DNA of 64,000 bases from Hyphomicrobiales bacterium. Its GTDB lineage: Bacteria > Pseudomonadota > Alphaproteobacteria > Micropepsales > Micropepsaceae. This document shows, piece after piece, positions 7,770 through 10,847 of this stretch. Both the position numbers and the translations under genes were made by a program. The stretch lies in assembly GCA_040255825.1 (NCBI GenBank), contig JBDZVS010000001.1, forward strand, positions 2,867 to 66,866, read 5' to 3'. The first letter of the stretch is position 1; every line of letters starts with the position of its first letter. Below the pieces are notes generated by a model that searched no databases, was not told the origin of the DNA, and saw only the letters and a program-made list of their open reading frames with translations.

Positions 7770-10700
7770 ATGATTGAAATCCTCTCCGTGGCGTCGGAAA
7801 TCTACCCGCTGGTCAAGACCGGGGGGCTGGCCGATGTCGTGGCTGCATTGCCCGGCGCGCTCGCGCCCCACGGCATTCGCGTCACAACCCTGGTTCCCGG
7901 CTACCCAGCCCTGCGCGAGCATCTGGCCGGTGCGCTGGAGATCCACAGTTACGAGCAGCTTCTGGGGGTGCCGGCGCGCATCCTGGAAACCGATCTCGAT
8001 GGGCATACGCTGTTGGTGCTGGATGCGCCGGCGCTCTTCGAACGCAGTGGTGGCCCTTATGCGGGCCCGGATGGGCGCGACTGGCCGGACAATTGGCGGC
8101 GCTTCGCGGCCCTGGCGCGCGCGGCCGCCGATCTGGCGGGCGGCATCGTGGCCCGGCGCCATTATGACATTCTGCATGCCCATGACTGGCAGGCGGCAAT
8201 GGCGCCCGCCTATCTGCGTTTTGCCCCGGGGTCGAACAGATCCGCTGCCAGCGTGATCACGATCCACAATATCGCCTTTCAAGGCCGGTTCGATCGTTCG
8301 ATATTCGACGCGCTGGGTCTGCCGCCCGGGGCCTATGGCATCGACGGCGTGGAATATTTCGGCGGCATCGGCTTTCTGAAGGCGGGCCTGGCGGCGGCCG
8401 ACGCCATCACCACCGTCAGCCCCGGCTATGCCGAGGAGATTTGCACGCCCGAACACGGCATGGGACTCGAGGGGTTGATCCGCGCGCGCAGCGCGGTGGT
8501 GCATGGCATCGTCAACGGCATCGATACGAATGTCTGGGATCCGGAAAGCGATCCCGACCTGGTCAGTCGGTACAATGCCCGCACTCTGGCCCGGCGTGGC
8601 GAGAACAAGCGCGCCGTCGAACGCGGGTTCGGCATCGAATCCGGTCAAGGCCCCCTTTTCACCGTCATCAGCCGCCTGACCTGGCAAAAGGGGATGGATG
8701 TTCTGGCCGGTCAGTTGGATGCGCTGGTGGCGTCCGGCGCGCGGCTGGCGCTGCTGGGCAGCGGCGATCCGGCGCTCGAGGCCCAGTTCCGCGCCGCGGC
8801 GGCGCGCCATCGCGGCCGCATCGGCATCGCCATCGGCTATGACGAGAAGCTTTCGCATCTTCTGCAGGCCGGGTGCGACGCCATCCTGATTCCATCTCGT
8901 TTCGAACCGTGCGGACTGACTCAGCTTTATGGCCAGACCTATGGCTGCGTCCCGGTCGCGGCGCGCGTCGGCGGCCTTGCCGACACCATCATCGATGCCA
9001 ACCAGGCGGCCCTGTCGGCCGGTGTTGCCACCGGCATCTTGTTCGACAGCGTCACCACCGACGCCATCCAGCGGGCGATCCGCCGTGCCGGCGCGCTTTT
9101 CAAGGACACCAAAGTCTGGAACAACATGCAGCGCCAGGGCATGAAACAGGATTTTTCCTGGCGCCGCAGCGGGTCGCAATACGCCGCTCTCTATTCCGGT
9201 TTGGTCAAGGAAAGACGCATGCCCGTCACCAACGTCACCACGCCCTTCGAAGGCCAGAAGCCGGGCACTTCAGGTCTGCGCAAGAAGGTCAAGGTCTTCC
9301 AACAGCCGAACTATGCGGAAAATTTCATCCAGGCCGTTTTCGACGTGGTGGAAGGCAAGGACGATGCGACGCTGGTCATCGGCGGCGACGGCCGGTTTCA
9401 TAACAGGCCGGTGATCCAGCAGGCGATCCGCATGGCGGCCGCCAATGGCTTCGGCAAGGTTCTGGTGGGGCAGGGCGGCATTCTTTCCACGCCGGCTGCC
9501 AGCAACCTGATCCGCAAATATGGCGCGATCGGCGGGCTGGTCCTGTCGGCCAGTCACAATCCGGGCGGACCGGACGAGGATTTCGGCATAAAATACAACA
9601 TCGCCAATGGCGGACCGGCGCCCGAAAAGGTGACGGAGGCGATCTATCAGCGCACGCTGACTATCGATCGCTGGCTTGGCATCGACGGGCTCGACATCGA
9701 CTTGAATCGACTTGGCACGGTGCGCATGGACGGTATGGCGGTGGAGGTGATCGACCCGGTTGCCGATTATGCGGAGCTGATGGAATCGCTGTTCGATTTT
9801 CCCGCCATCCGGGCGCTTGCGGCATCCGGCTTCACCATGACCTTCGATGCGATGAATGCCGTCACCGGTCCATATGCACGCGAAATCCTGGAAACGCGGC
9901 TGGGATTCGGCGAAGGCACGGTCAGGAACGGCATCCCGCTGGAGGATTTCGGCGGTCTGCATCCCGATCCCAATATCGTCAACGCAAAAGCCCTTTACGA
10001 GCTGATGATGGGAAAGGGTGCTCCCGATTTCGCGGCGGCTTCCGACGGCGACGGCGATCGCAACCTCATCATCGGACGCGGGCGTTACGTCACGCCTTCC
10101 GATTCCCTGGCCATGCTGGCCGCAAATGCCCATCTGGCGCCCGGCTATGCCGGTGGCCTGGCCGGCGTGGCCCGTTCCATGCCGACAAGCGCGGCGGTCG
10201 ACCGGGTTGCCGCTTCGCTGGGCATCAAATGCTACGAGACGCCCACGGGCTGGAAATTCTTCGGCAACCTGCTGGACGCAGGCCTGGCCACGCTTTGCGG
10301 CGAGGAAAGCTCGGGTACCGGTTCGGATCATGTGCGCGAGAAGGACGGCCTTTGGGCGGTGCTTCTATGGCTCAACATCCTGGCAGCGCGCAAAATCTCC
10401 GTCGATGCGCTGGCGCGCGAGCACTGGACGAAATACGGGCGCAATTATTATTCTCGCTATGATTATGAAGGCATCGAGACGCAAAAGGCGGCAGCCCTGA
10501 TGGCCGACCTGCGCGCCGCTCTGCCGAAGCTTGCGGGCAGGCGCTTCGGCAAGCTGACGGTCGCGGCGGCGGATGACTTCTCCTACATCGATCCGGTGGA
10601 CGGATCGGTCAGCGAACATCAAGGGGTGCGGGTGCTGTTTCAGGGCGGTTCGCGCCTCGTGATGCGCCTGTCGGGAACGGGCACGGCTGGCGCGACGTTG

Positions 10701-10847
10701 CGGGTCTATCTGGAACGCTACGAGCCGGCGGACGCGCGCCTGGACGCCGATACCCAGACCATGCTGGCCCCGATCATCCAGGCGCTGGAGCCGATTGCCG
10801 GCATCGCACGCCATACCGGCCGTACCCGGCCGGATGTCGTGACGTGA
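7770..10847 (+). CDS. glgA: single ORF: glycogen synthase GlgA (aa 1-483) fused in frame to phosphoglucomutase Pgm (aa 484-1025)
   Basis: The N-half has [14 protein letters not shown] and [13 protein letters not shown], ending [14 protein letters not shown]. The C-half has [28 protein letters not shown] and GEESSG. There is no stop codon at the junction. Confidence 0.93.
9219..10847 (+). CDS. pgm: phosphoglucomutase moiety, with a possible independent internal start
   Basis: In-frame ATG at 9219 ([19 protein letters not shown]) preceded by AAGGA at 9207-9211, 7 nt upstream. It has the phosphoserine motif SASHN and the metal loop DGDGDR. Confidence 0.8.

What the first reader, a model, noticed from the sequence alone, without database searches (positions are those of the whole stretch)
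7770..10847. Glycogen synthase and phosphoglucomutase encoded as one in-frame ORF with a retained internal RBS
Seen: full-length GlgA (483 aa) runs without a stop or linker (...YSGLVKERR|[10 protein letters not shown]...) into full-length Pgm (542 aa). An AAGGA sits 7 nt before the internal ATG at 9219. Known: glgA and pgm are normally adjacent but separate genes in the rhizobial glgPBCA-pgm-glgX operon. Inference: either a true GlgA-Pgm fusion, possibly co-produced with free Pgm, that places G1P supply next to GlgC/GlgA, or a small indel or sequencing error that erased the glgA stop.
Basis: partly seen in the sequence, partly recalled or inferred. Interest (0 to 1): 0.62.

Follow-up and report, generated by a model that had tools for sequence, protein, structure and literature searches.

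The report
Glycogen synthase fused to phosphoglucomutase
A soil alphaproteobacterium really does encode glycogen synthase and phosphoglucomutase as one 1025-residue protein; this fusion is old, has arisen many times in related bacteria, and seems to keep a working internal start site, so that free phosphoglucomutase can probably still be made.

Summary
ORF 7770-10847 (+) encodes full-length GlgA (residues 1-483) joined without a stop to full-length Pgm (484-1025). AAGGA lies 7 nt before the ATG at 9219.

It is not an error. Contigs from several sequencing runs cover the junction without indels. More than 100 protein clusters of about 1022-1165 aa carry both enzymes.

The window sits in a well-supported clade of 28 non-redundant members, all fused. 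Its nearest named relatives are Rhizomicrobium MAGs. Both halves keep every catalytic motif and evolve under purifying selection.

On a Pgm tree the fused state changes at least 10-15 times. Fused and split forms are one mutation apart:
- a 1-nt length difference from the ATGA-overlap arrangement of Sphingomonadales;
- loss of the single in-frame stop in most Hyphomicrobiales.

The old pgm start appears to be maintained:
- the junction codon is ATG or GTG in 13 of 13 clade genes (all 11 Val codons are GTG);
- a Shine-Dalgarno core persists while the amino acids encoding it vary;
- local mRNA structure is weak.

The likely output is a 109-kDa bifunctional enzyme plus free 58-kDa Pgm. The free Pgm is inferred, not shown.

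I found no paper describing this fusion, and databases label it only "phosphoglucomutase". Interest is moderate.

The parts
1863..4322 (+). glgP (glycogen phosphorylase), first gene of the operon; the true start may be the ATG at 1902
   Evidence: NCBIfam TIGR02093, 1112 bits; same gene order in relatives L164 and L167
4262..6472 (+). glgB (branching enzyme); the likely start is the ATG at 4319
   Evidence: NCBIfam NF003811, 981 bits; start candidates
6503..7762 (+). glgC (ADP-glucose pyrophosphorylase), preceded by a strong GGAGG Shine-Dalgarno site
   Evidence: NCBIfam NF001947, 674 bits; anti-SD duplex energy -9.3 kcal/mol
7770..10847 (+). fused glgA-pgm ORF, 1025 aa, 109.3 kDa
   Evidence: conserved as a fusion in more than 100 clusters
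7770..9218 (+). GlgA part (residues 1-483, 51.5 kDa): GT5 ADP-glucose-type glycogen synthase
   Evidence: NF001899 matched at residues 3-480; 601 bits to A. tumefaciens glycogen synthase 1RZU. KTGGL, HDWQ, R302, K307 and E379 are invariant in 94 fused homologs
9207..9211 (+). AAGGA, a Shine-Dalgarno-like core 7 nt upstream of the internal ATG
   Evidence: An SD core is kept at this place in 12 of 13 clade genes although the encoded amino acids vary. In the window alone the duplex energy is only -5.4 kcal/mol, which is not unusual
9219..9221 (+). internal ATG, homologous to the start codon of separate pgm genes
   Evidence: The junction codon is ATG in 2 and GTG in 11 of the 13 clade genes. The junction residue is M or V in 91 of 103 fused clusters
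9219..10847 (+). Pgm part (residues 484-1025, 57.8 kDa): PGM1-type alpha-D-phosphoglucomutase
   Evidence: NF005737 matched at 487-1025; 761 bits to PDB 7VSS. SASHNP (Ser595), DGDGDR, GEES and RLSGTG are invariant
10844..12721 (+). glgX (debranching enzyme); its GTG start overlaps the fusion's TGA stop (GTGA)
   Evidence: TIGR02100, 709 bits
12734..14239 (+). zwf (glucose-6-phosphate dehydrogenase), directly downstream
   Evidence: TIGR00871, 436 bits; same position in L164

Best explanation
This is a genuine, selectively maintained fusion of glgA and pgm inside a glgP-glgB-glgC-(glgA::pgm)-glgX-zwf operon.

Translation from ATG 7770 gives a 109-kDa polypeptide. It holds a complete GT5 glycogen synthase, a tether of about 5 residues, and a complete PGM1-type phosphoglucomutase. 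The two enzymes are therefore made in equal amounts, and Pgm is held on the glycogen-bound synthase.

The ancestral pgm translation start (AAGGA, 7 nt, ATG 9219) has been preserved. The same mRNA most likely also yields free 58-kDa Pgm by internal initiation, for the cell's other needs for glucose-1-phosphate.

The fusion arose by a minimal mutation. Relative to the ATGA stop/start overlap in the sister group, it is a 1-nt change in length. Equivalent fusions have formed or reverted many times in Alphaproteobacteria.

Shown: the fusion is real, it is conserved, both halves are intact, and start signals are conserved at the DNA level. Inferred: both activities, internal initiation, and any benefit of tethering.
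For: Reality of the fusion:
- Contigs of the probable source run X1 tile 7700-10900 with no indel. A 97%-identical contig from another sample (X2) crosses the junction without gaps.
- More than 100 clusters at 55-89% identity have both domain sets in 1022-1165 aa.
- The window lies in a clade of 28 rows, all fused, with support 98.

Both halves are functional in form:
- Full-length equivalog matches.
- All catalytic motifs are invariant in 94 fused sequences.
- dN/dS is 0.07-0.23 for each half at dS 0.8-1.2.
- The AF2 model has mean pLDDT 89.5, with helix 465-480, coil 481-485 and strand 486-489.

Internal start:
- The junction codon is ATG or GTG in 13 of 13 clade genes, and all 11 Val codons are GTG. 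Only 2 of 45 conserved-Val columns are all GTG; the mean GTG share is 0.58.
- An SD core in -17..-5 is conserved in at least 12 of 13 genes at only three places in 1014 codons. The junction is the only one of the three not explained by invariant amino acids.
- The 40-nt window at the junction folds more weakly than the ORF median in 13 of 14 fused loci.
- Geminicoccaceae-type fusions carry GGGAGG before the junction ATG, in the top 0-3% of positions.
- The window's -5.4 kcal/mol equals or exceeds the values for glgA, glgX and zwf in the same operon.

Origin:
- Sphingomonadales have ...CTG ACA + 11 nt + ATGA. Clade members have ...CTG ACA + 12 nt + GTG.
Against: - No protein, Ribo-seq or activity data exist. 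Internal initiation is inferred from conservation only.
- In the window itself, 22-31% of internal in-frame positions pair with the anti-SD as well as AAGGA does.
- The GTG test has an empirical p of only about 0.05 (2 of 45 columns).
- K-D at the SD position is fairly conserved (20-23 of 30 clusters), so some protein-level constraint cannot be excluded.
- Some fused clades lack an SD (L056, L162) or lack Met/Val altogether (P0056, P0063, P0065, P0078, P0107). The fusion can therefore work without an internal start.
- AF2 gives no confident interface between the two enzymes (pTM 0.58).
- GlgA and Pgm are not consecutive steps, since GlgC lies between them. Direct channelling is unlikely and the benefit of tethering is speculative.
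- The frequent toggling between states fits near-neutrality as well as it fits adaptation.
Confidence: 0.6

Rival explanations
1. The fusion is real, but the only product is the 109-kDa protein. The ATG/GTG and the purine-rich tract are inherited remnants, or are kept for protein-level reasons such as linker composition, and they do not initiate translation.
For: - The window's SD energy is ordinary for internal positions.
- Ribosomes elongating through the site would tend to mask it (established knowledge of translation, not tested here).
- K-D is partly conserved as amino acids.
- Several fused clades have lost Met/Val or have no SD. The fused protein alone must therefore suffice in those clades, unless another pgm exists.
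Against: - 11 of 11 Val codons are GTG, although dS is 0.8-1.2 between even the closest pairs.
- The SD core is kept while the amino acids change: K-E, R-D, G-D, R-T, R-N, R-Q.
- The residue at this position is only ever M or V in 30 clade clusters, apart from one T that is followed directly by M.
- The mRNA is weakly structured at the site.
Confidence: 0.33
2. Sequencing or assembly error, or a very recent private mutation that removed the glgA stop. The organism really has two separate genes.
For: Fused and split states differ by a single nucleotide event. One metagenomic contig (L161) differs from a fused relative (L162) only by a 32-nt deletion that splits the gene, so such variants, or such assembly artefacts, do occur.
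Against: - No indel appears in any run laid on the junction.
- The same linkerless junction occurs in 28 non-redundant clade members from many independent assemblies and sources: NCBI, ENA, JGI and Logan.
Confidence: 0.02
3. The fused ORF is translated as one chain, which is then cut at the junction by a protease. The fusion would then be only a way of making the two enzymes in equal amounts, and the working enzymes would be separate.
For: The junction is the least confident stretch of the AF2 model (pLDDT about 74 for residues 481-490). It is basic (KERR).
Against: No protease motif or precedent was found. Other clades have very different linkers of 0 to about 140 residues, which argues against a conserved cleavage site.
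Confidence: 0.05

Closest known systems
Separate glgA and pgm of the Agrobacterium tumefaciens / Rhizobium glgP-glgB-glgC-glgA-pgm-glgX operon (Uttaro and Ugalde 1994; Ugalde et al. [quoted passage not shown]
   Same: Same gene order and the same two enzymes. The GlgA half scores 601 bits against A. tumefaciens glycogen synthase 1RZU. In most Hyphomicrobiales the two genes are even in the same reading frame, 0-9 nt apart.
   Different: There the two genes are separated by a stop codon; here there is none. From my own recollection of that paper, which is not held in the library: A. tumefaciens secures independent Pgm supply through a second transcript. In the fused gene, the retained internal start would play that role at the level of translation.
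Fusion enzymes of bacterial alpha-glucan metabolism listed in the review PMC11046441: TreS-Mak/Pep2, GlgB-MalQ (Neisseria) and GlgA-GlgB (Criblamydiaceae/Waddliaceae)
   Same: Neighbouring glycogen or alpha-glucan genes are merged into one polypeptide, and the merger is conserved in a lineage.
   Different: The partner combination GlgA + Pgm is not in that review and not in any paper found. TreS-Mak joins consecutive steps, whereas GlgA and Pgm are separated by the GlgC step. In the chlamydial GlgA-GlgB fusion one domain is inactive; here both halves keep all catalytic motifs.
Bacterial genes that give two proteins from one frame by internal initiation (ClpB, IF2, CheA-L/CheA-S; from my own knowledge)
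   Same: An in-frame internal start codon with its own Shine-Dalgarno site, conserved across relatives, would give a shorter C-terminal product.
   Different: In those cases the short form is a truncated version of one protein. Here it would be a complete, independently evolved enzyme. The short product has not been observed.
PGM1-type phosphoglucomutases with solved structures (PDB 7VSS; human and rabbit PGM1, such as 5EPC and 1C47)
   Same: The Pgm half aligns over its full length (761 and 615 bits) and has the four signature loops.
   Different: None of the solved chains carries a glycogen synthase. No PDB entry spans both halves.

Membership tests
GlgA, ADP-glucose-type glycogen synthase (GT5; NCBIfam NF001899 / TIGR02095) | Full-length match above the curated cut-off | tested here: met
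   NF001899: residues 3-480 against profile positions 2-477 of 478; 640 bits, cut-off 459. TIGR02095: 529 bits, cut-off 328
GlgA, ADP-glucose-type glycogen synthase (GT5; NCBIfam NF001899 / TIGR02095) | Catalytic and binding motifs: K-T-G-G-L near the N-terminus, H-D-W, Arg/Lys pair (R302, K307), Glu of RFEPCGL (E379) | tested here: met
   All are present in the window protein and invariant in 94 fused homologs: T17 G18 G19 L20, H138 D139 W140 Q141, R302, K307, E379
GlgA, ADP-glucose-type glycogen synthase (GT5; NCBIfam NF001899 / TIGR02095) | Transfers glucose from ADP-glucose to alpha-1,4-glucan | not testable with these tools
   Needs an enzyme assay or complementation of a laboratory E. 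coli glgA mutant
alpha-D-glucose phosphate-specific phosphoglucomutase (PGM1 type; NCBIfam NF005737) | Full-length match above the curated cut-off | tested here: met
   Residues 487-1025 against profile positions 5-543 of 543; 924 bits, cut-off 378. 761 bits to PDB 7VSS
alpha-D-glucose phosphate-specific phosphoglucomutase (PGM1 type; NCBIfam NF005737) | Four signature loops: phosphoserine SASHNP, metal-binding DGDGDR, sugar-binding GEESxG, phosphate-binding RLSGTG | tested here: met
   A594 S595 H596 N597; D759 G760 D761 G762 D763 R764; G844 E845 E846 S847; R966 L967 S968 T970. All are invariant in 94 fused homologs
alpha-D-glucose phosphate-specific phosphoglucomutase (PGM1 type; NCBIfam NF005737) | Interconverts glucose-1-phosphate and glucose-6-phosphate | not testable with these tools
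   Needs an enzyme assay or complementation of a laboratory E. coli pgm mutant
Genuine bifunctional gene fusion (as opposed to an artefact) | An uninterrupted frame in independent assemblies | tested here: met
   No indels in runs X1, X2, X7 or X12. 13 clade genes from NCBI, ENA, JGI and Logan assemblies are all open across the junction
Genuine bifunctional gene fusion (as opposed to an artefact) | The fusion is conserved over evolutionary time, with both halves under purifying selection | tested here: met
   A clade of 28 rows, all fused, support 98. dN/dS is 0.07-0.23 in each half at dS 0.8-1.2
Genuine bifunctional gene fusion (as opposed to an artefact) | A single polypeptide of the predicted size is observed | not testable with these tools
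   No proteome is available. One 219-nt metatranscriptome contig (9711-9929) shows only that the gene is transcribed
Gene with a functional internal translation start | An in-frame start-capable codon is conserved beyond what the amino acid requires | tested here: met
   ATG in 2 and GTG in 11 of the 13 clade genes. Only 2 of 45 conserved-Val columns are all GTG. The junction residue is M or V in 91 of 103 fused clusters
Gene with a functional internal translation start | A Shine-Dalgarno site at 5-12 nt, conserved independently of the encoded amino acids | tested here: inconclusive
   12 of 13 clade genes keep a core here while the residues vary, and this is unique among 1014 columns once invariant E-D and E-E codons are set aside. 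However, the window's own site is only -5.4 kcal/mol, matched by 22-31% of internal positions
Gene with a functional internal translation start | The short product or an initiation peak is observed | not testable with these tools
   Needs a western blot, N-terminal proteomics or start-site Ribo-seq

The most novel reading that the evidence does not exclude
The glgA/pgm boundary may be an evolutionary switch, not a fixed gene border. It would set how much phosphoglucomutase is tethered to glycogen synthase and how much is free.

- In fused lineages such as this one, a single ORF would give both products through a maintained internal start.
- In 'split' Hyphomicrobiales, including model Rhizobium, Ensifer and Agrobacterium, the two genes stay in the same frame with one stop codon 0-9 nt before the ATG (86 of 109 distinct junctions). 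This could be because part of the ribosomes read through the stop and make the same fusion protein there too.
Probability: 0.1. Interest if true: 0.7.

Novelty: new variant of a known kind. Interest (0 to 1): 0.42.

Why it matters
Both enzymes are textbook enzymes, and fusion of operon neighbours is a known process, so nothing here is categorically new. Four points still matter:

- The GlgA-Pgm architecture is widespread in soil Alphaproteobacteria. It is absent from a comprehensive 2024 review of alpha-glucan enzymes and from the searchable literature. Databases hide it under the name 'phosphoglucomutase', so glycogen synthase can look missing in these genomes.
- It joins two steps that are not consecutive. 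This argues for tethering or fixed stoichiometry and against substrate channelling.
- It has formed or reverted at least ten times by one-nucleotide events. That makes it a clean natural system for studying how gene fusion and fission happen, and whether they are adaptive.
- If internal initiation is confirmed, it shows how a cell can fuse a pathway enzyme and still keep a free pool of it for other pathways.

Tried and rejected
I could not check for a second pgm or glgA elsewhere in the genome, or survey relatives genome by genome. tblastn of both halves against the 64-kb window found only the fusion itself.
The clade's taxonomy therefore rests on a few MAG names.
- P0128, an apparently 'split' 542-aa member of a fused cluster, is a contig-edge artefact.
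- The anti-SD energy test on the window alone is not significant. I rejected the AAGGA as stand-alone evidence.
- A sigma-70 promoter scan inside glgA (7700-9400) found nothing, so no internal promoter can be proposed from consensus.
- AlphaFold2 gave well-folded halves but no confident interface (pTM 0.58), so I make no structural claim about domain packing. I did not run fold searches, because both folds are already identified by sequence.
- The only RNA run holding the region gave one 219-nt contig in the pgm half. It says nothing about the junction.
- In the 50%-identity representative library only one representative (P0115) spans both halves. P0247 (969 aa, 37% identity) was not followed up.
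- The key A. tumefaciens paper (PMC107758) is not held. Its content is cited by title only and otherwise from memory.
- One look-up of encoding contigs (P0018) returned no DNA.
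Full report
**Observation.** The window has a single ORF at 7770..10847 on the + strand, 1025 aa long. The junction reads ...YSGLVKERR|[15 protein letters not shown] lies at 9207-9211, followed by a 7-nt spacer and ATG at 9219-9221. Pfam places the GT5 and GT1 domains at residues 4-440 and the PGM domains I-III plus PGM1_C at 496-1022. NCBIfam matches two complete equivalog profiles. GlgA NF001899 covers residues 3-480 (640 bits, cut-off 459). Alpha-D-glucose phosphate-specific phosphoglucomutase NF005737 covers 487-1025 (924 bits, cut-off 378).

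**Not an artefact.**
- Contigs of the probable source run (X1, a rhizosphere metagenome) tile 7700-10900 at 99-100% identity with no inserted or deleted base.
- A 97%-identical 801-nt contig from another sample (X2) crosses the junction without a gap. Contigs from runs X7 and X12 also show no indel.
- A search restricted to proteins of comparable length, scored on residues 380-620, returned more than 100 clusters at 90% identity. They are 1014-1165 aa long, carry both domain sets and are 55-89% identical to the window protein.
- Thirteen genes of the window's own clade, from NCBI, ENA, JGI and Logan assemblies, are all open across the junction.

**Both halves look functional.**
- In an alignment of 94 fused proteins, the GlgA signatures are invariant: T17-G18-G19-L20 of KTGGL, H138-D139-W140-Q141, R302, K307 and E379.
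- The four PGM loops are also invariant: A594-S595-H596-N597, D759-G-D-G-D-R764, G844-E-E-S847 and R966-L-S-x-T970.
- Pairwise dN/dS within the clade is 0.07-0.23 for each half, at dS 0.8-1.2.
- The closest solved structures are PGM 7VSS (761 bits) and Agrobacterium tumefaciens glycogen synthase 1RZU (601 bits). No PDB chain spans both halves.
- AlphaFold2 with the 94-sequence alignment gives mean pLDDT 89.5 but pTM 0.58. The last GlgA helix is 465-480, a coil runs 481-485 and the first Pgm strand is 486-489. The two enzymes are thus joined by a tether of about 5 residues, and no relative orientation is confidently predicted.
- Calculated masses are 109.3 kDa for the fusion, 51.5 kDa for GlgA and 57.8 kDa for Pgm.

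**Context.** The gene sits in the operon glgP (1863-4322), glgB (4262-6472), glgC (6503-7762), glgA::pgm, glgX (10844-12721, overlapping the fusion's stop as GTGA) and zwf (12734-14239). Fused relatives L164 and L167 have the same order. No second glgA or pgm lies in the 64-kb window.

**Whose gene is it?** The nearest named relatives are MAGs labelled Rhizomicrobium sp. and 'Alphaproteobacteria bacterium'. They are not rhizobia. A FastTree of the Pgm part used 209 rows made non-redundant at 93% identity, with the junction columns excluded. On it the window lies in a clade of 28 rows, all fused (local support 98). That clade is nested next to Sphingomonadales sequences.

**How the fusion arises, and how often.**
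- On that tree the fused label needs at least 15 changes, of which at least 10 are forced by well-supported branches. Sampling was biased: fused proteins came from a length-limited search, and split genes only from fetched loci. The numbers are therefore minimum counts for this set, not rates.
- Two routes are visible in the DNA. In the sister Sphingomonadales, glgA ends ...GAA CTG ACA GGA AAA GCC GCA TGA, with the pgm ATG overlapping the stop (ATGA). That leaves 11 nt between ACA and ATG.
- Clade members such as L406 read ...GAA CTG ACA AAG GAC AGG CAT GTG, which is 12 nt. One nucleotide of length separates the split form from the fused form.
- In Hyphomicrobiales (Rhizobium, Ensifer, Shinella, Agrobacterium, Mesorhizobium, Aminobacter) the two genes are usually in the same frame. 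A single stop codon lies 0, 3, 6 or 9 nt before the ATG. The spacer length is a multiple of three in 86 of 109 distinct junction sequences. There a point mutation in the stop fuses the genes, as in the fused Mesorhizobium-labelled MAG L056.
- A natural or assembly variant shows the reverse step. L161 is identical to fused L162 except for a 32-nt deletion in the linker, which separates GlgA (501 aa) from Pgm (542 aa).

**Is the old pgm start still used?** In the window alone the evidence is weak. AAGGA pairs with the anti-Shine-Dalgarno sequence at -5.4 kcal/mol, and 22-31% of internal in-frame positions do as well. That value does equal or exceed those of the real starts of glgA (-3.3), glgX (-4.1) and zwf (-5.6) in the same operon. 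The comparative evidence is stronger:
1. Among 103 full-length fused clusters the residue at the ancestral start position is Met in 68, Val in 23 and something else in 12. In the 30 clusters of the window's clade it is Met in 9 and Val in 20; the one Thr is followed directly by Met.
2. In the 13 clade genes with DNA the codon is ATG twice and GTG eleven times, never GTC, GTT or GTA. In the same genes only 2 of 45 columns with conserved Val are all GTG, and the mean GTG share is 0.58. Synonymous sites are heavily substituted even between the closest pairs (dS at least 0.78).
3. A Shine-Dalgarno core (AGGA, GGAG or GAGG) within -17..-5 occurs at 5.8% of codon positions on average. It is conserved in at least 12 of 13 genes at only three places in 1014 aligned codons. 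Two of these are encoded by invariant catalytic residues (E-D before 728-731 and E-E before 848-851). The third is the junction, where the encoding amino acids vary (K-E, R-D, K-D, G-D, R-T, R-Q, R-K, R-N).
4. The 40-nt window centred on the junction start folds more weakly than the ORF median in 13 of 14 fused loci. It is among the weakest 13% in 9 of them.
5. In another fused clade (Geminicoccaceae type: L168, L170, L246) the junction ATG is preceded by GGGAGG, at -10 to -12 kcal/mol, in the top 0-3% of positions.

Points against: K-D is also fairly conserved as amino acids. Two fused loci (L056, L162) have no evident SD. One fused clade (P0056, P0063, P0065 and P0078) and the separate clusters P0097, P0107 and P0118 have no Met or Val at the site, so the fused protein can evidently do without an internal start.

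**Most likely mechanism.** The operon mRNA is translated from 7770 into a two-enzyme polypeptide. Internal initiation at 9219 probably adds free Pgm. My estimates are about 0.97 that the fusion is real, and about 0.6 for the full picture including the internal start. The fusion fixes a 1:1 ratio and holds Pgm on the glycogen-bound synthase. Direct channelling is unlikely because GlgC acts between Pgm and GlgA. Tethering could instead serve both synthesis (G6P to G1P near GlgC and GlgA) and breakdown (G1P released by GlgP, converted to G6P and passed to the zwf product encoded two genes downstream). That benefit is inference. The frequent toggling between states is equally compatible with near-neutrality.

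**Comparison with what is known.** The separate-gene arrangement is the classical A. tumefaciens and Rhizobium glg operon (references 3 and 4 of PMC4301808). The title of Ugalde et al. [quoted passage not shown] The paper itself is not held. The 2024 Chemical Reviews survey of prokaryotic alpha-glucan enzymes lists TreS-Mak, GlgB-MalQ and GlgA-GlgB fusions but no GlgA-Pgm fusion. Three full-text searches found no description of one. Databases do hold these proteins, under names that hide one half: JGI calls them 'phosphoglucomutase', and NCBI calls MBN9588870.1 'alpha-D-glucose phosphate-specific phosphoglucomutase'. An earlier first-stage note of this scan (e1-4163108) reports a 1024-aa GlgA-Pgm fusion in another genome with the junction gacATGAacATGAcc. 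That agrees with the peptide ...ADMNMTV... of clusters P0040 and P0043. In a library of one representative per 50%-identity cluster, only one representative (P0115) spans both halves. The architecture is therefore essentially confined to one alphaproteobacterial family of sequences.

**Verdict.** This is a new variant of a known kind: two ordinary enzymes in a domain architecture not described in the literature. It has a recurrent one-nucleotide origin and DNA-level signs of a maintained internal start. Interest is moderate.

**Limits.** There are no protein-level data. Contigs were available, not raw reads. Clade taxonomy rests on a few MAG labels. The tree is a quick FastTree on a biased sample.

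Noticed in passing
L002-L060, L084-L117, L171-L232 and other Hyphomicrobiales loci (junction about 300 nt into each match): In split Hyphomicrobiales, glgA and pgm are mostly in the same reading frame. A single stop codon (TGA 41, TAA 29, TAG 1) lies 0, 3, 6 or 9 nt before the ATG. The spacer is a multiple of three in 86 of 109 distinct junctions, where about one third would be expected by chance. This could mean repeated passage through a fused state, or stop-codon read-through. Shared ancestry among these loci was not controlled for.
   Followed up: partly
L161:2100-2420 versus L162:4260-4580: Two metagenomic contigs are identical over about 290 aligned bases except for a 32-nt deletion in the linker. 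One (L162) encodes a 1033-aa fusion. The other (L161) encodes overlapping separate GlgA (501 aa) and Pgm (542 aa). This is either a population variant or an assembly artefact.
   Followed up: partly
Proteins P0056, P0063, P0065, P0078, P0107, P0097 and P0118: A clade of fused proteins and a few separate fused clusters have no Met or Val at the ancestral pgm start (junctions such as ...TTPSITTVPTTPF). Fusion would be obligatory there. They would be the best test of whether the fused Pgm is fully competent.
   Followed up: no
Proteins P0068, P0069 and P0118: Some fused proteins carry long low-complexity Pro/Ala/Ser-rich linkers of about 60-140 residues (total 1090-1165 aa), whereas the window's clade has no linker. 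Linker length is evidently unconstrained.
   Followed up: no
window 10844-14239; L164:9075-12446: zwf (glucose-6-phosphate dehydrogenase) follows glgX directly, both in the window and in a fused relative. The cluster thus encodes the whole path from glycogen to 6-phosphogluconolactone.
   Followed up: partly
Proteins P0155 (935 aa), P0166 (849 aa), P0167 (806 aa) and P0247 (969 aa): Other long proteins in the 50%-identity library carry a complete Pgm behind a different N-terminal region of 220-400 residues. P0247 aligns to residues 8-900 of the fusion at 37% identity. These may be further, unrelated Pgm fusions.
   Followed up: no
window 9711-9929: A 219-nt contig from a soil metatranscriptome (run X25) matches the pgm half with one mismatch. 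The gene, or that of a near-identical strain, is therefore transcribed in soil.
   Followed up: partly
Database names of P0005, P0324 (MBN9588870.1) and others: Public annotation names the 1025-aa fusion simply 'phosphoglucomutase'. Partial copies are named either 'glycogen synthase GlgA, partial' or 'phosphoglucomutase, partial'. Automated pathway reconstructions may therefore score glgA as missing in these genomes.
   Followed up: no
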